64,000 nt of DNA from Nitrospira sp. (GTDB taxonomy: Bacteria; Nitrospirota; Nitrospiria; Nitrospirales; Nitrospiraceae). The DNA lies in NCBI GenBank assembly GCA_024998685.1, contig JACOEH010000010.1, forward strand, positions 47,789 to 111,788. The letters are read 5' to 3'. Of the stretch, positions 45,226 to 53,795 are shown in pieces. The translations under genes and the position numbers were made by a program. Each line of letters opens with the position of its first letter. Within the stretch, counting starts at the first letter, position 1. The notes beneath the pieces are model-generated. The model worked only from the letters and a program-made list of their open reading frames with translations. It did not search any database and was not told the origin of the DNA.

Positions 45226-45684
45226 ATGATTCAAGACAACTCCGAGGATCCCGCTTCGTCCCCGCCAATGGGGGGTTCATTCCGCCACGCCAGACCCCCT
45301 ACACTGGCCACCGTGGAATCCACACCTCCCTATTTTCGGCATCACTATCGAGTCCCACTCACCGTGCAATACCCCGTAATGTTTTCCGATGCAGAGACGA
45401 TCGCAGAAGGGAAGGTGATGAACCTCACAGTGTTCGGCTGCGCGATCGAGTGTGTCGGTGCCGCACCCCAGCGGACCACCCTCCGCGTACGGCTGATCCT
45501 CCCGGATCAGGCACAGTCACTCCCGGTCGAAGAGGCGGAGGTCCGATGGGTCCAAGGAAATAGAATGGGCCTTCAGTTTCACAAGGTAGAGCGGGCGGCT
45601 GATTTTCGGCTTCACGGATTTGTGTGGGATCGCATGATCGAGCGGCTCCGGACGATCACTCAGGAAGGATTTTCCATCTCTTGA
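45226..45684 (+). CDS. PilZ domain protein
   Basis: RHHYR and degenerate NLTVFG. Confidence 0.85.
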   Translation: MIQDNSEDPASSPPMGGSFRHARPPTLATVESTPPYFRHHYRVPLTVQYPVMFSDAETIAEGKVMNLTVFGCAIECVGAAPQRTTLRVRLILPDQAQSLPVEEAEVRWVQGNRMGLQFHKVERAADFRLHGFVWDRMIERLRTITQEGFSIS

Positions 45685-46667
45685 TCCTGCGGGATCCTGC
45701 CTTTTCCGACCGTTGCCAAACACAACAGTCCGATACCGATCCACACCAGCTCTCGGAACCTTCGCAGCAGCGCGAAGGTGATCCCCGTCACGTCACTGTA
45801 GCCGAACGTTTGGAGCAACAGGAGATTGCCGGCATCTTGGGCACCCAGGCTGCCCGGGATGAAGAAGGATCCGCCCTTGATAAACACCGCGAGTGCCCCT
45901 ATAGAGAGGGCGGACAATAGACTCACCGAACCACCGAGCAAATAGATGATCCCGAAGACTTCCATCGATTCGGCCATCCAGCCCAAAAAGTACACCCCCA
46001 TCGACACATAAAAGGCTTTTTGATGGTTGCGATAGAAATTCCGAATCGTCTGGTCGATCGAGCGCAGGTGCTCTTCCTGGGTTTTCAGAAACCGGACTCG
46101 CAAACCCAATTTCTTGACCAATGACAGAATCGATGCAAAGAGCCCACGCTGCTGGATGAAGACAAATCCTGCAATTGAACACACCAGGAGTCCGACACTC
46201 AACAGCGCTGCCGTAATCGTTCTCCCCGCTGAACTGCCGACACCCAGAATCCAAAAGGCAATGGCGATTCCCGTGAGGATATAGAACACTTCGGCGATCG
46301 TCATGGTCGTCTTCGCAATGACAACTGACGCGGCCCCCTCCGCCATGGGAACATCGTACCGTTTGAGCAGATAGACCTTCAGTGGTTCGCCCCCCAGGTA
46401 GGCGGTCGGAGTGGTCATATTCACCACTTCGCCGGCGCTCCGAATCGTCAGCAGTCGCCAAAACGGAACTCCTTGTGCCGCCCGGCCCAACACCACTTTC
46501 CACCCATAGGCTTCAACGGAATACATGAGGACCGATGGAATCAGGATGGCCAGCAAGGCTATCGGACCAAGTCTGGTAGCAGCCTCATAGATATTGGCCG
46601 GACCGATATGCCAGACCAGAAGGCTCAGAACGATGAGGCCAAGGGCTAGAAGGATATAGCGCAACAC
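45660..46667 (-). CDS. Flippase-like / lysylphosphatidylglycerol synthase TM (UPF0104) protein
   Basis: NMTTPTAYLGGEPLK, FFIPGSLGAQDAG, LLRRFRELVW. Confidence 0.88.
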   Translation of the reverse strand: MLRYILLALGLIVLSLLVWHIGPANIYEAATRLGPIALLAILIPSVLMYSVEAYGWKVVLGRAAQGVPFWRLLTIRSAGEVVNMTTPTAYLGGEPLKVYLLKRYDVPMAEGAASVVIAKTTMTIAEVFYILTGIAIAFWILGVGSSAGRTITAALLSVGLLVCSIAGFVFIQQRGLFASILSLVKKLGLRVRFLKTQEEHLRSIDQTIRNFYRNHQKAFYVSMGVYFLGWMAESMEVFGIIYLLGGSVSLLSALSIGALAVFIKGGSFFIPGSLGAQDAGNLLLLQTFGYSDVTGITFALLRRFRELVWIGIGLLCLATVGKGRIPQDQEMENPS

Positions 46668-46692: not shown

Positions 46693-48129
46693 TTATGGCA
46701 GAAGAGATGACACTGCGGATGGGCGGATGACCCAAATCATGGCGCCGGCAAACAGCAAGGAACCGGCTGCCGCAAAGAGTAAAAACCAATAGAGTTGATC
46801 GAACAACGCAAACCCCAGTAAGGCAGCTGAGAAATCACGGCTGGCGACATTTTTCAACATGACGTCCGCCCAGGCTGCATGGACGGGGGTTCTCCAGCCA
46901 CTCACCGCTTTAATCTTTTGCGCCTTTTCGACAAGTAAGAATGAAAGGCCGTTGCCGAATACAGCGGCGGCACCTAGCGCGAGAGGTACCCAAGCGTTCG
47001 CTTGTCCCATATGAGTCGTGTAGAGTCCCACGGCGATGCCGGCAAAAATCGCCATGTGCACAATGTTGTCCAAAACGATATCGAGCCAGGCACCAAAAGG
47101 CGACTCGGTAAAGGTCAATCGCGCGACTTCGCCGTCACAACAATCAATGACGGCCGCCAATTGAAACAAGAGGGCTGCCACGATACCGGCACTGTACGTG
47201 CCCATCCCAAACCCTGCCGCAGCAACCAGACCGATACATCCGGCAAGAACCGTGATGGAATTGGGCGACAGCCCCATGGCGAGAAAGAGGCGCGTGAACC
47301 AGCGAGAGACCTTGCGATTGAAATAGCGATCGACGAACCCTTCAAATTCTCCCTTGAGCGAATTGAACAATTTCGTTTCGGCTGTTTGGACGTCGGACAC
47401 GTTTCGGACGGATTGATACCAAGCATCCCGCCTCTCTTCAGCCGAGACGAGCCGCACTCGACCATCCGCCTCGGCCCGCTCAAGCCACTGCCGGATCGGA
47501 GGGTTTCCCTTTTCACTCGCCGCTTGATTGGCGGTGCTCATCAGGCTTGCCGGCACGACCACCAGCTCGGCGACACGCAAGGCCGGATCGTCGAAACGAG
47601 GAGGGGCGAAAAGCGTCGGGCGACCGGACGGGACTTTCGATCGCACATCCTGCACCATGAACCGATCGACCTGCCTCTGCGGGGCTTGAGAGACCACGAT
47701 GGCCTGACCGTCCTGTATATCACGCCGCAACCGTTCGATCAGCCCTCGAGAGAACACGCCATTGCAGCTCGCGACCAGCGCAAAGCCATGCACTTCCGCC
47801 GCCAAGGTTTCCCATGTCCGAGGATCATCGAGAGGAAACTCACGGATCGGCATCCATCGGACGGGAATCGTGACGCGCGGCCCTTTGCCCAGCGCCTGTT
47901 TCAGCTGCTCCTCCTCGGAACCGGAAAGGACGATTAATTGGCGCATCCCCGCTCGTTGCAAAGTGAGCACGGCCCGTTGGAAGAGCCCGATCCCCACGAC
48001 GTTCGTCAGAGGTCCCACGTCGTCACCCTGCGACCCAATCGGACCGCCGAATACCCCGACAGACGGCAGCAGAATCGCCGTCGCCAGTCCTTGGATTTCG
48101 GCTCTTCGTTGAAGGGTGCTCTTACTCAT
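46693..48129 (-). CDS. CDP-alcohol phosphotransferase with a degenerate N-terminal nucleotidyltransferase-like domain
   Basis: DCCDGEVARLTFTESPFGAWLDIVLD signature; GFVDRYFNRKVS as in DIPPS-like enzymes. Confidence 0.88.
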   Translation of the reverse strand: MSKSTLQRRAEIQGLATAILLPSVGVFGGPIGSQGDDVGPLTNVVGIGLFQRAVLTLQRAGMRQLIVLSGSEEEQLKQALGKGPRVTIPVRWMPIREFPLDDPRTWETLAAEVHGFALVASCNGVFSRGLIERLRRDIQDGQAIVVSQAPQRQVDRFMVQDVRSKVPSGRPTLFAPPRFDDPALRVAELVVVPASLMSTANQAASEKGNPPIRQWLERAEADGRVRLVSAEERRDAWYQSVRNVSDVQTAETKLFNSLKGEFEGFVDRYFNRKVSRWFTRLFLAMGLSPNSITVLAGCIGLVAAAGFGMGTYSAGIVAALLFQLAAVIDCCDGEVARLTFTESPFGAWLDIVLDNIVHMAIFAGIAVGLYTTHMGQANAWVPLALGAAAVFGNGLSFLLVEKAQKIKAVSGWRTPVHAAWADVMLKNVASRDFSAALLGFALFDQLYWFLLFAAAGSLLFAGAMIWVIRPSAVSSLLP

Positions 48130-48185: not shown

Positions 48186-48905
48186 TCATAATCTTGGCGA
48201 AACTTCCAACTCGGCTTTTCTTATGTCTTCGCTGAAATCGATCTCGGTCCAGGGCAGACCGCCGATCCGTTCATACCCGACCCGCACATCCTGAAAATAC
48301 GGCAGCAGCGCGTCCTCATACTCCATATCCCATGAACCTCTGTCGATGTAGCCGCGCAGCGACGACACGACACGAGGCGTGTCGGCATGCCGGACGCGAA
48401 GGAATCCAATCCCTTCACCGGCGAAGTCGTACTGTTCCGGCATGGTCTTTGTCAGTGCGACGACTCGGCCTCCCGCGACGACCACCATGCATTCTTCTCC
48501 GGTTTGCTTCACCGTCTCATCCATCAACAGCGCATTCTCAGAGGATGACGACACCAGACGCCGTAGGATTTCCGGATGGAACAGCACATCGGCATCCATC
48601 ACGATCGTATCGTCGTCGAACGCGGTTCGTGCGATCCACAGCGAGGAAATACTGCCTCTGTGAAACTGCTCGTTGACCAGAAACGTCACGTTGACGCCGC
48701 ACGCATCCTGGGCGACCGCCGTACGAATCATTTCCTGCTTATACCCGACGACGATCTCGGCCCGGCGAATCCCGACAGAAACCAGCGACTCCAAGTAACG
48801 ACGCAAAAGCGACCGTCCGCCGATCTCGATGAGGCATTTCGGACGATGCTGGGTCACTTCCCATAGACGTTTTCCCACTCCCGCTGCAAGAATAACCGCC
48901 TTCAT
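48186..48905 (-). CDS. Cytidylyltransferase (LicC/PntC-like)
   Basis: LAAGVGKRL..PKCL, MDADV, WTEIDFSED. Confidence 0.88.
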   Translation of the reverse strand: MKAVILAAGVGKRLWEVTQHRPKCLIEIGGRSLLRRYLESLVSVGIRRAEIVVGYKQEMIRTAVAQDACGVNVTFLVNEQFHRGSISSLWIARTAFDDDTIVMDADVLFHPEILRRLVSSSSENALLMDETVKQTGEECMVVVAGGRVVALTKTMPEQYDFAGEGIGFLRVRHADTPRVVSSLRGYIDRGSWDMEYEDALLPYFQDVRVGYERIGGLPWTEIDFSEDIRKAELEVSPRL

Positions 48906-49984
48906 GCCGACTTACACACGTGCTCAAAGGCGTCGAGAAACCCGCCGCATTCCGCCTCGGACAAGGCCCCCATATTGGCCACGCGGAAAATCTTGTTTTC
49001 CAAGTTGCCTTGACCGGCATAAATGACATAGCCCTGCTGTTTCAGACGGTCATGTAACGTGTGGTAGGACACACCATCCGGCAGATGATAGGCCGTGATG
49101 GTATTCGATTGCCGCTCCGCCGTGAGAAGCGCCTTCACGCCGAGTTTGGCCATTCGCCCACGGATGAAGGTCGCCATTTTCTTGTACCGTTGGATGCGAT
49201 TGGCCACGCCTTCTTCGAGTAGCTCGTTGAGTGCTTCGTCGAAGGCATAGTAGATCTGGACGGCGGGCGTGAAGGGAATCGTGCCTCGCCCCTCGTTGTC
49301 GATGTAATGGGTCAGATGGAGATACCACGAGCGCTTCGGGTACGAACGCATTTTTTCGACGAACCCCTTCCGCACCAGCACGAATGAGACGCCCGGGAAG
49401 CCCTGAATACACTTTCCCGCCGTCCCCGTCACCATATAGATGTGCGACCGCGCAATGTCGATCGTCTCGCCCGCCAGAGCGCTGACGGCATCCAGCACAA
49501 ACACCCGATTCTGATTATCGACGATCTCGGCGATCTCGTGGACCGGATTCAGGAGTCCGGTGGTGGTCTCATGATGTACCATGCCGACGGCATGCACCTC
49601 CTGATGCTGTCGCAAAGCAAGAAGCAATCTTTCCGGATCGGGCGGGACCGTCCATTCATATTTCAACTCGCTTACCCCCAGGCGATGGAGCCCCACGATG
49701 TGAGACATCCGTTCACCATAGACGCCGTTGTTGAGGATGAGCATACGGCGGCCGTGAGGGAGCGACGACATCAAGGCAGCTTCGACGGCAGCCGTCCCTG
49801 ACCCGGTCATCACAACAGCAACGTATTCCGATTCTGCCCCAGGGACAAAGGCCTTGAGCAGTTTGGCTTGGATACGGTGGAGCAGCTCGTAAAATTCATC
49901 TTCTCGATGGCAGATATCGGGTTTCAGCAGCGCCTGCCGCACACGCTCTGACACATTCACCGGCCCAGGATTGAGGAGAACCAC
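48902..49984 (-). CDS. aepZ: Class V PLP aminotransferase, 2-aminoethylphosphonate aminotransferase-like
   Basis: LLNPGP, GSGTAAVEA, HHETTTG, DAVS, TAGKCIQGFPG, GYVIYAG (PhnW/AepZ-like). Confidence 0.8.
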   Translation of the reverse strand: MVLLNPGPVNVSERVRQALLKPDICHREDEFYELLHRIQAKLLKAFVPGAESEYVAVVMTGSGTAAVEAALMSSLPHGRRMLILNNGVYGERMSHIVGLHRLGVSELKYEWTVPPDPERLLLALRQHQEVHAVGMVHHETTTGLLNPVHEIAEIVDNQNRVFVLDAVSALAGETIDIARSHIYMVTGTAGKCIQGFPGVSFVLVRKGFVEKMRSYPKRSWYLHLTHYIDNEGRGTIPFTPAVQIYYAFDEALNELLEEGVANRIQRYKKMATFIRGRMAKLGVKALLTAERQSNTITAYHLPDGVSYHTLHDRLKQQGYVIYAGQGNLENKIFRVANMGALSEAECGGFLDAFEHVCKSA

Positions 49985-49993
49985 TCTTCTCTC

Positions 49994-50089
49994 CGTTATT
50001 CGTTAACCGTGAAGCGTTAATCGCAAAATGCCGATTCTACTTCGTACATCAAATAGCGATTCACGAATAACGTTTCACGAGTGACGTCA
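49994..50089 (-). repeat. Paired 7-bp (CG-anchored) repeat element between ppd-beta and aepZ
   Basis: cgttatt cgttaac cgtgaag cgttaat (49994-50021) and cgattca cgaataa cgtttca cgagtga (50057-50084). Confidence 0.8.
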
Positions 50090-50665
50090 TTCAATCGCTT
50101 TCATGAATCGACGGGTGATATCCGGCGGATCGTGCAAGACGCGGCCTGCATCTTCCACAAATTCATTCACCTTGATGAGCAACATGCTGGGTCCATCCTT
50201 CTTCAGCATGTCTTTGAACTCGTAGACGAGATCGTCGCGATCAAGGACTCGTTCCACATTCACGTAGCCTGCCGACTTCGCCACTTTCTCCAGCGGCACC
50301 ACATTGGAGATCGTGGGCTGGTTCCCGGTCGTCCCGTACACTTCGTTGTCGAAAACGACGTGGATAAAGTTTTTCGGCTTTAACGCACCGATCGTCGCGA
50401 CAGTACCCATTCCCATTAGCACATTTCCATCGCCATCGAAGGTGATCACCTGTTTATTGGGTTTTGCGAGCGCGACACCGAGCGCGATCGCCGGGGCATT
50501 CCCCATGGAGCCGATCATGTAGAAATGGGTGGACCGATCCGCGATCTTGTGAGCCTCGCGCGAGGGGAACCCGTTGCAGATAATGACGGGTTGATCGGTC
50601 AGCAACTCCAACAAAGCCGCCATGGCCTGCGCTCGGCTGATCAATGTGCCTTGTTCGGGTCTCAC
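50087..50665 (-). CDS. ppd: Phosphonopyruvate decarboxylase beta subunit (TPP-binding, ComE-like)
   Basis: FYMIGSMG, DGDGNVLM, DNEVYGTTGNQPT; GTG start overlaps the alpha-subunit TGA. Confidence 0.82.
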   Translation of the reverse strand: MRPEQGTLISRAQAMAALLELLTDQPVIICNGFPSREAHKIADRSTHFYMIGSMGNAPAIALGVALAKPNKQVITFDGDGNVLMGMGTVATIGALKPKNFIHVVFDNEVYGTTGNQPTISNVVPLEKVAKSAGYVNVERVLDRDDLVYEFKDMLKKDGPSMLLIKVNEFVEDAGRVLHDPPDITRRFMKAIE

Positions 50666-51159
50666 GGATGCAACCCTTTCACCACGCCCTTGGTGATGAG
50701 CAACGCGACCGGAATCTGTTGCTGCATGAATGTTTGAGCCACCCACCTGAAATCTTCAATGGCCGTTTTTTCAGTCAAGGTACGATGCGGAATTTTGACG
50801 GTATCGAGCAATTGCGGCATCACTTCTCCCATCACCAAATGTTCGGGAGCATCTTTTCCTCTTTGACCCCGCCATGAAACAATCAATAGGCAAGGTTGCT
50901 TATAAATCATATTCAGAGAAATGAGCGTATTGAGTGAGGTGCCGAGTCCTGAATTCTGCATTAAGACGGCGGGGGTTTTTCCCGCCATATATGCGCCCGC
51001 AGCCATGCCCACCGCTTCATCCTCTCGAACCGCAGGGGTGTAGAGTCGACGGTTCATGAGTTCCGCAATGATCCCGCCCAGGATCGAATCCGGCACGCCG
51101 GTGAAGAAATTGACCCCCATATCCTGCATGGCTTGCACGAACACATCGCTTTCAATCAC
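50662..51159 (-). CDS. ppd: Phosphonopyruvate decarboxylase alpha subunit (ComD-like)
   Basis: FFTGVPDS, REDEAVGMAAGAY, MQNSGLG, SWRG, DAPEH. Confidence 0.82.
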   Translation of the reverse strand: MIESDVFVQAMQDMGVNFFTGVPDSILGGIIAELMNRRLYTPAVREDEAVGMAAGAYMAGKTPAVLMQNSGLGTSLNTLISLNMIYKQPCLLIVSWRGQRGKDAPEHLVMGEVMPQLLDTVKIPHRTLTEKTAIEDFRWVAQTFMQQQIPVALLITKGVVKGLHP

Positions 51160-51207
51160 TGAGCATTCCCCTCGGAATATTGATACACGTCCACGGAAAG
51201 CCGGCGC

Positions 51208-51237
51208 ATTATAAGATACGCCGTGCAGGGTTCTCAA
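51208..51237 (-). promoter_or_regulatory. Sigma70 promoter for the ppd-aepZ-cytidylyltransferase operon
   Basis: TTGAGA, 18 bp, TATAAT on the minus strand. Confidence 0.65.
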
Positions 51238-51317: not shown

Positions 51318-51845
51318 ATGAAAAATTGCATTCGATCCGCACCCCATCCTTGGTTGTTGGTCCTGATGTTCGCAATCATGATCAGTGCCGACTCAGTATG
51401 GGCTGTGCCCATGACGAATGATCCGAAGGGATTTCATGGTATTCCCTGGGGGACCTCCTTATCTTCGCGTCAGGACTTGGAACCGATACAGGCAGATCCG
51501 CATATCGCCGAATATCTCCGCAAGACAGAGCCGTCATCATTTGCAGGAACCCAGATGACCAGCGTTCTCTATGTCTCGGTGGACGACCAATTCGCGCGTG
51601 TCATCATTCGGTATCAAGGAGACCACGTGCATCGCCAGGTGCTGGGATTCTTGGAAAGCCGCTTTGGTCGGCTGGAACACATTCCCGGACAAATGGCACG
51701 AGGACTCAGCCAGCAATACAACTGGCGTGGATCCGACACCGAAATCAATTTGACATATCAGGCCAGCACAGAGCGTGGCTATATCTTCATCGATAGTCGC
51801 ACGCTGGCCCCCCGATTCAATGACGACATTACCGATTCCCCATAG
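51318..51845 (+). CDS. Hypothetical exported protein
   Basis: Signal peptide (..ADSVWA), KGFHGIPWG, YNWRG; no family recognised. Confidence 0.8.
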   Translation: MKNCIRSAPHPWLLVLMFAIMISADSVWAVPMTNDPKGFHGIPWGTSLSSRQDLEPIQADPHIAEYLRKTEPSSFAGTQMTSVLYVSVDDQFARVIIRYQGDHVHRQVLGFLESRFGRLEHIPGQMARGLSQQYNWRGSDTEINLTYQASTERGYIFIDSRTLAPRFNDDITDSP

Positions 51846-52115: not shown

Positions 52116-53795
52116 ATGACTAACGCCGCAAAACTCCGAGCTGCATTGAAAAGGCCTGGGGCCTTGAAGATAGTCGGCGCTCACGACGCGCTCAGCGCCC
52201 GTCTCATCGAACGCGCCGGTTTCGACGGTGTCTGGGCGAGCGGCTTCGCCATTTCAGCCTCTCTGAAATGTATCCCCGATGCCAGTTTTATCACCTCCAG
52301 CGAGCAACTCGACGTTGAACGGAATATCGTTGAGGCCGTGAACATTCCAGTGATCGCTGACTGCGATACCGGATATGGCAATGCGCTGAATGTCATGCGG
52401 ACCGTCACCGACCGCGAGCGGGCCGGCGTGGCGGCTATTTGCATTGAAGATAACGTTTATCCAAAACGCTGCAGTTTCTATGCGGGCGTTCGTCGAGAAT
52501 TGATTCCCATTGAAGAGCACTGCGGCAAGATTCGAGCGGCGAAAGCCGTTCAGGTTTCCCCAGAATTCATGATCATTGCTAGAACCGAGGCCCTCATCGC
52601 CGGGTGGGGTCAGGAAGAAGCGCTGAAACGGGCTGAAGCCTATGCAGACGCCGGCGCCGATGCAATTCTGATCCATTCGAAATCAAAAAAGTTTGACGAG
52701 TTGAAGGGTGTGTATAAATTGTGGTCCGGGCGCGTCCCGTTGGTCGTGGTTCCCACGATTTTCGATCAGACGACCGCGACGGAAATGGAAGAAGCCGGGG
52801 CAAAGATCATCATCTATGCCAACCAACCGGTACGGGCGGCCATTCGTGCCATGACGGACACGTTGGACCTCATCAAGAAAGACACGCGCCCCGGAGCGGC
52901 AAACGACCGAATCGTCACGCTACCCGAAGTCTATGACATTGTCGGTGTCCCGCAAATGGAGCAAGACGAGAAACAGTTCCTTCCGGTGGGTAGCGAACGA
53001 ATCACCGCGATTATCGCCGCCGCCGGATTCGAAAAACAGCTTTTGCCGTTGATTGAGGATAAGCCGAAGTGTCTGCTCGACATTAAAGGGAAAACGATCC
53101 TCGATCGCCAGATCAGCGCGCTCAACGAATGCGACATCAAAGAAATTGCGTTGGTTCGTGGGTATAAAAAAGAAGCAATCTCGCTTCCTAATATCCGCTA
53201 CTACGACAACGATCGTTACGAGGAAACCGGCGAGCTCGTTTCGCTCTTCTGTGCCGAAAATGAGTTAAGAGGGCGGACCATCGTTTTGTACGGCGATATC
53301 ATCTTTGAGACCGCGATTCTTGAAAAGTTGCTCAAAAGTCCCGCCGACATTGCTCTGGTTGTCGACCTAGCCTGGTTTGATCAGGAACAACTGCATGCCC
53401 AGCCGACCCATTTTAATCCGGATCTTGTCTCACTGGCCGCTCCTCCCGGCAAAAGCTATTTGTCCCGATTTGTGATGCCGGAGGGTGAGCACCAGGTGGT
53501 TAAGATCGGTCAGCAACTTCCCCGTGAACTGGCGCACGGTGAATTCATCGGCATAGCCATGTTCTCCGAAAAAGGCACTCAGACCCTTTGCGAGTACTAT
53601 CACAAGGCCTACAAACAGCATCAATCCTCCCCGTTCCACGACTCTGCAAGCCTGGCCAAGGCTTCTTTCACCGACATGCTGCAGGAACTGATCGACCAAG
53701 GCTACCGCATCCAAGCTGTACCGATTTTCAAGGGATGGATGGAAGTCGACTCTTTCGAAGAGTACCAAAAAGCCTGGGCAAAGATTCGACAGTAA
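52116..53795 (+). CDS. pepM: PEP mutase-like enzyme fused to a C-terminal nucleotidyltransferase
   Basis: GAHDALSA, WASGF, DCDTGYGN, EDNVYPKRCS, IIARTEA, ILIHSK; C-terminal AAAG..PKCLLDI..LYGDI NTase. Confidence 0.8.
   Translation: MTNAAKLRAALKRPGALKIVGAHDALSARLIERAGFDGVWASGFAISASLKCIPDASFITSSEQLDVERNIVEAVNIPVIADCDTGYGNALNVMRTVTDRERAGVAAICIEDNVYPKRCSFYAGVRRELIPIEEHCGKIRAAKAVQVSPEFMIIARTEALIAGWGQEEALKRAEAYADAGADAILIHSKSKKFDELKGVYKLWSGRVPLVVVPTIFDQTTATEMEEAGAKIIIYANQPVRAAIRAMTDTLDLIKKDTRPGAANDRIVTLPEVYDIVGVPQMEQDEKQFLPVGSERITAIIAAAGFEKQLLPLIEDKPKCLLDIKGKTILDRQISALNECDIKEIALVRGYKKEAISLPNIRYYDNDRYEETGELVSLFCAENELRGRTIVLYGDIIFETAILEKLLKSPADIALVVDLAWFDQEQLHAQPTHFNPDLVSLAAPPGKSYLSRFVMPEGEHQVVKIGQQLPRELAHGEFIGIAMFSEKGTQTLCEYYHKAYKQHQSSPFHDSASLAKASFTDMLQELIDQGYRIQAVPIFKGWMEVDSFEEYQKAWAKIRQ

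What the first reader, a model, noticed from the sequence alone, without database searches (positions are those of the whole stretch)
52446..52475. PEP mutase with a hybrid active-site loop (EDNVYPKRCS) that standard PepM motif screens would miss
Seen: the loop reads E-D-N-V-Y-P-K-R-C-S-F. Established: phosphonate mining uses EDK-x5-NS, while 2-methylisocitrate lyase and CPEP mutase carry K-R-C-G-H with a catalytic Cys. By eye, this protein keeps PepM-type features (loop Lys, Ser after the Cys, IIARTEA Arg, ILIHS His) but has Asn for the first Lys and Cys for the Asn. Inference: it is either a divergent PepM clade invisible to motif filters, so phosphonate producers are undercounted, or an enzyme with altered chemistry.
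Basis: partly seen in the sequence, partly recalled or inferred. Interest (0 to 1): 0.8.

Follow-up and report, generated by a model that had tools for sequence, protein, structure and literature searches.

The report
PEP mutase with a cysteine lid
This Nitrospira gene very probably encodes a working carbon-phosphorus bond-forming enzyme (PEP mutase), but its active-site lid reads EDN...CS instead of the "diagnostic" EDK...NS, so the motif filters and the NCBI model used to count phosphonate producers miss it.

Summary
Window 52446-52475 encodes E111-S120 = EDNVYPKRCS in a 559-aa PEP-mutase/nucleotidyltransferase fusion (52116-53795, +). In mussel PepM numbering, Lys116 is Asn and Asn122 is Cys. 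All metal-binding and phosphoryl-handling residues are kept.

The loop is not an accident. It is the fixed signature of a large group: 123 of 123 aligned members have the Cys. The group includes Nitrospirales, Bacillus thuringiensis, Aspergillus, Acidobacteriota, Binatia and Rokubacteria. It lies outside the clade that holds every crystallised PepM and phosphonopyruvate hydrolase.

Function is inferred from comparative genomics. This genome has no other PepM. The gene sits beside a split phosphonopyruvate decarboxylase, an AEP transaminase, a nucleotidyltransferase, a CDP-alcohol transferase and a flippase-like gene. Of 90 Nitrospirales genomes, 15 carry only the Cys type, 72 only the canonical type, and none both. 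Sister genomes keep the same downstream cluster with this gene's slot filled by another gene, and carry a canonical PepM elsewhere.

Published censuses demand EDKX5NS exactly. NCBI's TIGR02320 cut-off also fails: 271 bits against 319.55. KEGG-based annotation does call it pepM.

I found no paper on this loop. This scan has flagged the same clade at least six times on other genomes.

Verdict: a new variant of a known enzyme. No assay was possible.

The parts
52116..53795 (+). pepM-NTase fusion gene, 559 aa (PEP-mutase domain plus MobA-like nucleotidyltransferase domain)
   Evidence: Pfam PF13714 195.9 bits at aa 8-251 and PF12804 at aa 316-416. More than 100 homologues have the same 559-aa length.
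52116..53000 (+). PEP-mutase-type catalytic domain (aa 1-295)
   Evidence: Best PDB sequence match is 5unc PepM, E 3.4e-85. AF2 model pLDDT 93.8; Foldseek TM 0.95-0.97 to 5unc and 0.94-0.96 to mussel 1pym.
52446..52478 (+). Start of the gating (lid) loop, E111-F121 = EDNVYPKRCSF. N113 (52452-52454) replaces Lys116. R118 (52467-52469) replaces Thr/Val121. C119 (52470-52472) replaces Asn122. K117 and S120 are kept.
   Evidence: Group-specific conservation.
52494..52496 (+). R127, a co-varying lid residue (Gln130 in canonical PepM; Arg in 118 of 123 Cys-type sequences)
52245..52247 (+). F44, a co-varying residue (Leu48 of the mussel oxyanion-hole segment; Phe in 118 of 123 Cys-type sequences)
53001..53795 (+). 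Fused nucleotidyltransferase-fold domain. Its glycine loop reads AAGFEKQL, not the usual GxGxR.
   Evidence: The degeneracy was read from the translation and not tested further.
50662..51237 (-). Phosphonopyruvate decarboxylase alpha subunit (TPP_enzyme_N); the true start is possibly downstream of the TTG
   Evidence: TIGR03297 Ppd 134 bits, sulfopyruvate decarboxylase alpha 120 bits, both below cut-off
50087..50746 (-). Phosphonopyruvate decarboxylase beta subunit (TPP_enzyme_C)
   Evidence: TIGR03297 172 bits, TIGR03846 sulfopyruvate decarboxylase beta 180 bits, both below cut-off
48902..49984 (-). 2-aminoethylphosphonate (AEP) aminotransferase, AepZ/PhnW type
   Evidence: TIGR03301 349.6 bits against a cut-off of 360.8
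48186..48905 (-). Stand-alone nucleotidyltransferase (candidate AEP cytidylyltransferase)
   Evidence: PF00483 and PF12804
46693..48129 (-). CDP-alcohol phosphatidyltransferase with an N-terminal extension
   Evidence: PF01066 at aa 288-418
45660..46667 (-). HpnL / LPG_synthase_TM flippase-like membrane protein
   Evidence: PF03706 112.6 bits; TIGR03476 HpnL 165 bits, below cut-off
51318..51845 (+). Conserved 175-aa protein with a hydrophobic N-terminal stretch read by eye as a possible signal peptide (not run through a predictor) and no Pfam family. It lies between ppd and pepM. In sister genomes a paralogue of it fills the pepM slot.

Best explanation
The gene encodes a functional phosphoenolpyruvate mutase (PEP <-> phosphonopyruvate) fused to a nucleotidyltransferase-fold domain. 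It belongs to a large, early-branching 'Cys-lid' group of the PEP-mutase lineage.

The Mg2+ ligands, Arg159, His190, lid Lys120 and Ser123 (mussel numbering) are conserved. Four lid positions differ together: K116->N, 121->R, N122->C and Q130->R. L48->F and two C-terminal positions differ as well.

Inferred mechanism: the same dissociative phosphoryl migration on Mg2+-bound pyruvate enolate under a closed lid. The thiol sits where the Asn carboxamide contacts the migrating phosphoryl group. The two lid arginines supply the positive charge lost with Lys116.

The unfavourable equilibrium is pulled by the adjacent split phosphonopyruvate decarboxylase. An aminotransferase then gives 2-aminoethylphosphonate. 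This is nucleotide-activated and passed by a CDP-alcohol-type transferase to a membrane acceptor.

What is shown: sequence, fold, conservation, phylogeny, context and mutually exclusive distribution. What is inferred: catalytic activity, the role of the Cys and the final product.
For: 1. Catalytic inventory is kept. W44, S46, D58, D85, E114, D115, K120, S123, R159, E161 and H190 are all present and near-invariant in 123 Cys-type sequences.

2. Sequence and fold are closest to PepM. 5unc gives E 3.4e-85. Foldseek TM is 0.95-0.97 to PepM, 0.92-0.95 to PPH and 0.86-0.89 to the lyases.

3. This genome has no other PepM. The only other PF13714 hits are PrpB (EDQEAAKKCGH, next to prpC/prpD) and PanB.

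4. Phosphonopyruvate-consuming partners recur across distant relatives.
- Split TPP decarboxylase, aminotransferase and CDP-OH transferase occur in L088 and L089.
- Decarboxylase plus Fe-ADH occur in Bacillus thuringiensis L084 and in L087.
- A homocitrate-synthase-like enzyme plus aconitase (a known PnPy sink in FR-900098-type pathways, from my own knowledge) occurs in L090.

5. Distribution is mutually exclusive. Ninety Nitrospirales genomes were searched with both loop patterns: Cys-type only 15, canonical only 72, both 0, neither 3. One of the three is an EDS..CS variant.

6. The downstream cluster is shared. Sister Nitrospira genomes G194, G200 and G032 keep the syntenic HpnL-CDPOH-NTase-AEPTA-Ppd cluster at 65-92% identity. 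A paralogue of the neighbouring 175-aa gene fills the slot that pepM holds here. Their only PepM is a canonical PepM-NTase fusion elsewhere.

7. The switch happened repeatedly. On a tree of AEPTA+PpdB, the four clusters from canonical-PepM genomes nest separately among Cys-type clusters, and starred branches force at least 4 switches.

8. Five distant Nitrospirales whose Cys-type gene has no Ppd within 10 kb all carry Ppd elsewhere.
Against: - No enzyme with this loop has been assayed or crystallised.
- Asn122 is regarded as part of the phosphoryl-holding site. Its replacement by Thr accompanies hydrolase chemistry in PPH. A thiol in this position is the proton donor in the related lyases.
- The protein fails both operational definitions of PepM: the EDKX5NS motif and the TIGR02320 cut-off (270.9 against 319.55).
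- The Ppd beta subunit scores marginally better against sulfopyruvate decarboxylase beta (180 against 172 bits).
- Two Nitrospiraceae genomes (G070, G290) keep Ppd and the aminotransferase with no PepM of either type. They have also lost the tailoring genes.
- Related genomes are not independent samples.
- The 80 Cys-type loci were selected by similarity to the query.
Confidence: 0.85

Rival explanations
1. It has PEP-mutase activity, but the Cys is chemically active: a transient S-phosphocysteine acceptor for the migrating phosphoryl group, or a thiol/redox switch on the lid. The mechanism or regulation would then differ from the canonical dissociative, non-covalent route.
For: Cys is invariant in 123 of 123 sequences. 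It is flanked by conserved Arg118 and Arg126/127. It occupies the position of the phosphoryl-contacting Asn122. The homologous Cys is catalytic in the lyases (own knowledge).
Against: There is no direct evidence. Relatives in the same group carry Ser at this position (EDN..SS, 8 sequences). Neighbouring branches carry Asn or His. This argues that nucleophilicity is not required. Invariance within the group is partly circular, because the group was defined by the Cys.
Confidence: 0.08
2. It has altered chemistry on the same scaffold: phosphonopyruvate hydrolase, or a C-C lyase/decarboxylase such as methylisocitrate lyase, oxaloacetate hydrolase or CPEP mutase. The lyase-type Cys would protonate a carbanion or enolate.
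For: The K-R-C segment of the lid resembles K-[KR]-C-G-H of the lyases. The PPH model TIGR02321 scores nearly as high as the PepM model (254 against 271 bits), and higher in one relative, P0371.
Against: The Gly-His after the Cys is missing (CSF). prpB and CPEP-mutase models score far lower (199 and 143 bits, against cut-offs of 354 and 420). A genuine PrpB exists elsewhere in the genome. The context is biosynthetic, with an irreversible decarboxylase downstream. A hydrolase would destroy the substrate of the neighbouring Ppd. Mutual exclusivity with canonical PepM would be unexplained.
Confidence: 0.04
3. The cluster makes a sulfonate rather than a phosphonate (sulfopyruvate decarboxylase, then an aminotransferase giving a taurine-type head group), and the PepM-like domain serves another role.
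For: The Ppd beta subunit scores 180 bits to sulfopyruvate decarboxylase beta against 172 bits to Ppd. Some relatives (L084, L087) also carry an Ldh_2 (ComC-like) gene.
Against: The aminotransferase scores 349.6 bits to the AEP-specific TIGR03301, just under its cut-off. No sulfopyruvate-forming genes are in the cluster. The same cluster in sister genomes co-occurs strictly with a canonical PepM that passes TIGR02320 at 393 bits.
Confidence: 0.02
4. The mutase domain is catalytically dead and retained only as a scaffold for the nucleotidyltransferase domain.
For: Two 'diagnostic' residues are changed. The fused NTase domain itself looks degenerate (AAGFEKQL).
Against: Every metal and phosphoryl ligand is conserved across phyla. 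Stand-alone versions without any NTase are common. No alternative phosphonopyruvate source exists in the genome.
Confidence: 0.01

Closest known systems
Canonical PEP mutase (PepM/Ppm/AepX, EC 5.4.2.9; Mytilus edulis 1PYM/1M1B, Streptomyces platensis 5UNC; TIGR02320), including the common Ppm-PF12804 fusions inventoried by Rice et al. 2019
   Same: - Same fold (TM 0.94-0.97).
- 38-57% sequence identity over the domain.
- Same Mg2+ ligands, Arg159, His190, lid Lys120 and Ser123.
- Same C-terminal NTase fusion architecture.
- Same partner enzymes (Ppd, AEP transaminase, CDP-alcohol transferase).
- Interchangeable with it in Nitrospirales genomes.
   Different: - Lid reads EDN..RCS, not EDK..xNS.
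- Further co-varying changes: L48F, Q130R, F276Y and Q279V.
- Falls outside the clade of all characterised PepMs.
- Scores 271 bits against the TIGR02320 cut-off of 319.55.
- Never assayed.
Phosphonopyruvate hydrolase (PalA, Variovorax; 2DUA/2HJP; TIGR02321)
   Same: Same lineage, 42% identity and TM 0.92-0.95. It is also a PepM relative with the lid Asn replaced (by Thr).
   Different: PPH keeps EDK and nests inside the canonical clade. It is catabolic. Here the context is biosynthetic, and the score of 254 bits is far below the cut-off of 374.
2-Methylisocitrate lyase / isocitrate lyase / petal death protein (K-[KR]-C-G-H lid with catalytic Cys)
   Same: A Cys at the homologous lid position, preceded by Lys-Arg. 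Same superfamily fold (TM 0.86-0.89).
   Different: No Gly-His after the Cys. EDN, not EDQ. About 30% identity. prpB model scores 199 bits against a cut-off of 354. The genome has its own PrpB in a prpBCD context.
'Group 1 phosphonolipid' / 'Burkholderiales_CDP-OH' type ppm gene neighbourhoods
   Same: Ppm-NTase, Ppd, AEP transaminase, CDP-alcohol transferase and a flippase-like gene.
   Different: Those inventories were built from motif-positive Ppm only. Here the first enzyme is the Cys-lid type. I did not re-derive the cluster classification myself.

Membership tests
PEP mutase (PepM) as currently defined | ICL/PEP-mutase superfamily barrel, closest in structure to solved PepMs | tested here: met
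   AF2 pLDDT 93.8; Foldseek TM 0.95-0.97 and rmsd 1.0-1.4 A to 5unc; 0.94-0.96 to 1pym
PEP mutase (PepM) as currently defined | Mg2+ site Asp58, Asp85, Asp87 and Glu114, and phosphoryl-handling Arg159 and His190 | tested here: met
   D55, D82, D84, E111, R156 and H187 align to them
PEP mutase (PepM) as currently defined | Signature motif EDKX5NS (Lys116, Asn122, Ser123) | tested here: not met
   The loop reads EDNVYPKRCS. Only Glu, Asp and Ser match.
PEP mutase (PepM) as currently defined | Score above the TIGR02320 equivalog cut-off | tested here: not met
   270.9 bits against 319.55. Seven of seven other EDN-type proteins also fail (263-299 bits). The canonical Nitrospira PepM passes at 393 bits.
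PEP mutase (PepM) as currently defined | Placement inside the clade of experimentally characterised PepMs | tested here: not met
   It lies outside the canonical+PPH clade (SH-aLRT 99; 99/88). It lies inside the wider PepM-like clade (100/97) that excludes the lyases.
PEP mutase (PepM) as currently defined | Genomic coupling to a phosphonopyruvate-consuming enzyme (Ppd or phosphonomethylmalate-synthase type) | tested here: met
   Ppd alpha/beta lie 0.9-2 kb away in the window. The same holds in most Nitrospirales loci and in L084, L087, L088 and L089. L090 has an HMGL-like enzyme plus aconitase.
PEP mutase (PepM) as currently defined | Catalysis of PEP <-> phosphonopyruvate | not testable with these tools
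   Inferred only, from mutually exclusive replacement of the canonical PepM
Phosphonopyruvate hydrolase | EDK lid with Thr in place of Asn122, and the TIGR02321 cut-off | tested here: not met
   EDN..C; 254.3 bits against 374.4; PPH rows nest in the canonical clade
Methylisocitrate/isocitrate lyase group | K-[KR]-C-G-H lid, and the prpB/ICL model cut-offs | tested here: not met
   K-R-C-S-F; TIGR02317 199 bits against 354; ICL models 36 bits or less
Carboxy-PEP mutase | TIGR02319 cut-off | tested here: not met
   143 bits against 420

The most novel reading that the evidence does not exclude
The Cys-lid enzymes represent the ancestral form of the C-P bond-forming enzyme: a lyase-derived lid that still carries the lyase Cys, from which the textbook EDK..NS lid evolved. 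In these enzymes the thiol may take part in chemistry, as a transient S-phospho intermediate or a redox gate on phosphonate synthesis. Asn122 would then not be a requirement of PEP mutase catalysis at all.
Probability: 0.12. Interest if true: 0.85.

Novelty: new variant of a known kind. Interest (0 to 1): 0.65.

Why it matters
PEP mutase is the entry point to almost all natural phosphonates. The pepM gene, filtered by the exact EDKX5NS motif or by the TIGR02320 cut-off, is the standard marker for counting and mining phosphonate producers.

If the Cys-lid group is active, those censuses systematically omit a whole early-branching part of the family:
- Among 88 Nitrospirales species genomes with a PepM, 15 match the EDN..CS pattern, and a 16th carries the EDS..CS variant.
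- It also includes Bacillus, fungi, Acidobacteriota, Binatia, Rokubacteria and many metagenomic lineages.
- Some members sit in natural-product-type clusters (NRPS, or homocitrate-synthase/aconitase neighbours).

It would also show that Lys116 and Asn122 are not essential for the mutase reaction. And it gives a living intermediate between the C-C lyases and the C-P mutase for studying how this chemistry arose.

Nitrospira are key nitrite oxidisers in soils, waters and wastewater plants. A phosphonate head group on their envelope bears on phosphorus cycling and on phage or predator interactions.

Tried and rejected
Contexts in other phyla had to come from a second protein search plus look-up of encoding contigs.
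- The Aspergillus locus L096 and metagenomic L086 showed no recognisable PnPy-consuming neighbour. L085 showed an NRPS only. These are uninformative rather than contrary.
- Literature searches found nothing on this loop: EDKXXXXXNS, Nitrospira + PEP mutase, non-canonical motif, Asn122, N122A, PKRCS, fosfonochlorin, and Nitrospira + aminoethylphosphonate. Subscription journals are largely not covered.
- The held text supplements of Rice 2019 do not mention Nitrospira. None are held for Li & Horsman 2022.
- I considered that canonical and Cys-type PepM might sit in the same slot (orthologous replacement). Rejected: the canonical gene is a solo gene elsewhere.
- I considered that Cys-type sequences form one clade sister to canonical PepM. 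The AU test disfavours it (delta lnL 41.9, p 0.028). The group was named after seeing the tree, so paraphyly is only moderately supported.
- An unbiased estimate of the share of all PepM diversity that is Cys-type could not be made. The top-150 list is biased toward the query.
Full report
**What is there**

The + strand gene at 52116-53795 encodes 559 aa. Residues 8-251 match Pfam PEP_mutase (195.9 bits). Residues about 296-559 are a MobA-like nucleotidyltransferase fold. The finding's coordinates 52446-52475 encode E111-S120 = EDNVYPKRCS, followed by F121.

HMMER alignments to solved structures place this stretch opposite four loops:
- EDKRFPKVNS in Streptomyces PepM 5unc (E 3.4e-85);
- EDKLFPKTNS in mussel PepM;
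- EDKTFPKDTS in phosphonopyruvate hydrolase;
- EDQVWPKKCG in petal death protein.

So in mussel numbering Lys116 is Asn and Asn122 is Cys, while Lys120 and Ser123 are kept.

**Surroundings**

Divergently transcribed from this gene are six genes:
- a split TPP decarboxylase (50662-51237 and 50087-50746; best models phosphonopyruvate or sulfopyruvate decarboxylase, both below cut-off);
- an AEP aminotransferase (48902-49984; TIGR03301 349.6 bits against a cut-off of 360.8);
- a stand-alone nucleotidyltransferase (48186-48905);
- a CDP-alcohol phosphatidyltransferase (46693-48129);
- an HpnL/LPG-synthase-type flippase-like protein (45660-46667).

This is the familiar PEP -> PnPy -> PnAA -> AEP -> nucleotide-activated AEP -> membrane-acceptor layout.

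The organism is a Nitrospira; the protein is 91% identical to the N. moscoviensis protein. The 98.8%-complete genome has only two other PF13714 matches. One is a PrpB with EDQEAAKKCGH beside prpC and prpD. The other is PanB. There is no canonical PepM.

**The loop is a clade signature, not a lesion**

In 80 Nitrospirales species genomes (64-97% identity), the loop is EDN[VI][YF]PKRCSF in 78. One reads EDS, and one could not be read. Asn, Cys and Ser codons vary synonymously, including AGY/TCN serine switches.

A library-wide phmmer search over 50%-identity representatives found the loop type EDNxxPK[RVK]CS[FL] in about 25 of the best 150 clusters. It also found EDN..NS, EDN..HS and EDQ..KRCG[L] variants.

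A second search, seeded with a stand-alone member, returned 118 proteins. Of these, 100 read EDN..CS, 7 EDY..CS and 7 EDN..SS. They come from Bacillus thuringiensis, Aspergillus, Acidobacteriota, Binatia, Rokubacteria, Omnitrophota and many metagenomes.

I compared 123 Cys-type with 90 canonical sequences. All known catalytic residues are equally conserved in both groups: W44, S46, D58, D85, E114, D115, K120, S123, R159, E161 and H190. A coherent set of positions differs:
- L48 -> F;
- K116 -> N;
- 121 -> R (106 of 123);
- N122 -> C (123 of 123);
- Q130 -> R (118 of 123);
- F276 -> Y;
- Q279 -> V.

Four of the seven lie in the gating loop. This is an alternative lid under purifying selection.

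**Phylogeny**

The first tree had 140 domains, with the loop columns removed, rooted on this genome's PrpB and petal death protein. All EDK..NS proteins, both crystallised PepMs and PPH form one clade (SH-aLRT 99). The query and the other EDN-type rows lie outside it in a basal grade. Next out is an EDQxxPKRCG[L] group, then the lyases.

A more careful 69-row tree gave the same picture:
- canonical + PPH clade, support 99/88;
- all PepM-like rows, support 100/97;
- a canonical Nitrospira PepM sits next to the mussel enzyme;
- the Cys-type rows are paraphyletic, some of them inside a 97/84 clade that contains the canonical clade.

Forcing the Cys-type rows into one clade costs 41.9 lnL (p-AU 0.028). 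That test is post hoc, so this is moderate support only. Under this rooting the Cys lid looks ancestral and the Asn lid derived. This depends on the root and is not proven.

**Fold**

AlphaFold2 with a 42-sequence alignment gives pLDDT 93.8 and pTM 0.91. Foldseek ranks PepM structures first (TM 0.94-0.97), then PPH (0.92-0.95), then the lyases (0.86-0.89).

**Function: the comparative-genomic argument**

(a) Partners. Distant Cys-type genes sit beside phosphonopyruvate-consuming enzymes of two unrelated kinds.
- Split TPP decarboxylase occurs in L084 (B. thuringiensis), L087, L088 and L089. It appears with Fe-ADH, or with aminotransferase, CDP-OH transferase and a flippase-like gene.
- A homocitrate-synthase-like enzyme plus aconitase occurs in L090. 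This is the FR-900098-type sink (my own knowledge).

(b) Mutual exclusivity. I searched Nitrospirota and Nitrospirales genomes with DNA patterns for the two lids. Among the 90 genomes searched with both:

| Lid type found | Genomes |
|---|---|
| Cys-type only | 15 |
| Canonical only | 72 |
| Both | 0 |
| Neither | 3 |

In the window's own genus, 18 of 24 other species have the canonical lid. The remaining 6 are exactly the Cys-type carriers. One of the three 'neither' genomes carries the EDS..CS variant.

(c) Same pathway, different mutase. In three sister Nitrospira (G194, G200, G032), the HpnL-CDPOH-NTase-AEPTA-PpdB-PpdA cluster is syntenic with the window at 65-92% identity. A paralogue of the small 175-aa gene occupies the slot that pepM holds here. 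Their only PepM is a canonical PepM-NTase fusion, 38-40% identical to the query. It passes TIGR02320 at 393 bits and sits alone elsewhere in the genome.

(d) Repetition. On a tree of the downstream genes, the four clusters from canonical-PepM genomes nest separately among Cys-type clusters. This requires at least four switches.

(e) Co-occurrence at a distance. Five distant Nitrospirales with no Ppd within 10 kb of their Cys-type gene all carry Ppd elsewhere.

Together these make isofunctional replacement the simplest reading. I put it at about 0.85.

**Caveats**

- No member has been assayed.
- Asn122 is thought to help hold the migrating phosphoryl group. Asn -> Thr goes with hydrolysis in PPH. 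The homologous Cys is the proton donor in the lyases.
- Ppd beta scores slightly better to sulfopyruvate decarboxylase beta.
- Two Nitrospiraceae genomes (G070, G290) keep Ppd + AEPTA with no PepM at all. They have also lost the NTase, CDP-OH transferase and flippase-like genes, so they look like remnants.
- Genomes are phylogenetically related, so counts overstate independence.

**Mechanism proposed (inference)**

The chemistry is the same as in canonical PepM: Mg2+-bound substrate, lid closure, and dissociative phosphoryl migration with Arg159 and His190. The thiol fills the Asn122 position as a weak hydrogen-bond donor or steric seal. Arg118 and Arg127 replace the charge of Lys116.

EDN..SS relatives suggest that a nucleophilic thiol is not required. 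A covalent or redox role for the Cys is kept as the novel case, at about 0.1.

**Is it missed by current screens?**

Yes for motif screens. Rice 2019, Li & Horsman 2022, Acker 2022 and a December 2025 actinomycete survey all require an exact EDKX5NS. Rice et al. note 22 fused PF13714 proteins discarded for lacking it.

Yes for NCBI's equivalog model. The query scores 270.9 bits against 319.55, and 7 of 7 other EDN-type proteins also fail. GenBank therefore names it 'isocitrate lyase/PEP mutase family protein'.

No for KEGG or JGI annotation, which calls it PEP phosphomutase. A KEGG-based lake study already listed Nitrospirota as pepM carriers without noting the lid.

**Novelty**

I found no publication describing this lid, within the open-access library searched. 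Earlier follow-ups in this scan reached the same conclusion on other genomes at least six times. I consulted them after forming my reading and treat them as agreement, not as evidence.

- the 15/72/0/3 exclusivity table;
- the finding that sister genomes fill the pepM slot with a different gene;
- the evidence for repeated switching;
- the co-varying residue set.

Classification: a new variant of a known kind of enzyme.

Noticed in passing
L084 7777-8724, L085 9932-10873, L087 10049-11026, L090 9926-10870: Stand-alone Cys-type pepM genes are immediately flanked by a gene of about 315 aa with faint or weak squalene-hopene-cyclase/prenyltransferase repeats. This was seen in four of five stand-alone bacterial loci inspected. 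It is a conserved partner of unknown role. L089 also has four larger SQHop_cyclase-like genes nearby.
   Followed up: no
window 53001-53795: The NTase domain fused to PepM has AAGFEKQL where active cytidylyltransferases have a GxGxR-type loop. The stand-alone NTase at 48186-48905 has AAGVGKRL. The fused domain may not be catalytic.
   Followed up: no
L122 (G070:C2) and L123 (G290:C6): Two Nitrospiraceae genomes keep PpdA/B, the AEP aminotransferase and two copies of the 175-aa gene. They have no PepM of any type and have lost the NTase, CDP-OH transferase and flippase-like genes. In G070, CstA abuts the aminotransferase. This is either a decaying remnant or a Ppd/aminotransferase pair with another use.
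   Followed up: partly
window 51318-51845; L114 8388-9388: A 175-aa protein with a hydrophobic N-terminal stretch (read by eye as a possible signal peptide; no predictor run) and no Pfam family is conserved between ppd and pepM across Nitrospirales. Genomes lacking the Cys-type pepM carry a second paralogue (32-35% identity) in the pepM slot.
   Followed up: partly
P0180, P0192, P0204 (representative library): A small group of 296-301-aa proteins with lid EDQxxPKRCG[L]/CAL branches between the lyases and all PepM-like proteins (support 100/96). They are uncharacterised possible intermediates. Their gene context could not be looked up under the tool rules.
   Followed up: no
L084 (Bacillus thuringiensis NUFK01000014.1): This cluster combines a Cys-type PepM, a split decarboxylase, Fe-ADH, two aminotransferases, glycerate kinase, an Ldh_2-family dehydrogenase, an NTase and a CDP-OH transferase. 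It lies next to integrase and transposase genes. The same gene set occurs in metagenomic L087 beside lanthipeptide-dehydratase and radical-SAM genes. The product is unknown.
   Followed up: no
L097-L101 (sister Nitrospira genomes): The canonical PepM-NTase fusion of most Nitrospira is a solo gene far from its Ppd cluster; its neighbours are MetH, DUF4124, a Tll0287-like gene and an aquaporin. Neighbourhood-based phosphonate cluster calling would split this pathway in two.
   Followed up: partly
window 50087-50746: The decarboxylase beta subunit scores marginally higher to sulfopyruvate decarboxylase beta (TIGR03846, 180 bits) than to Ppd (TIGR03297, 172 bits). Both are below cut-off. Split Ppd enzymes of this type are not captured by either curated model.
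   Followed up: no
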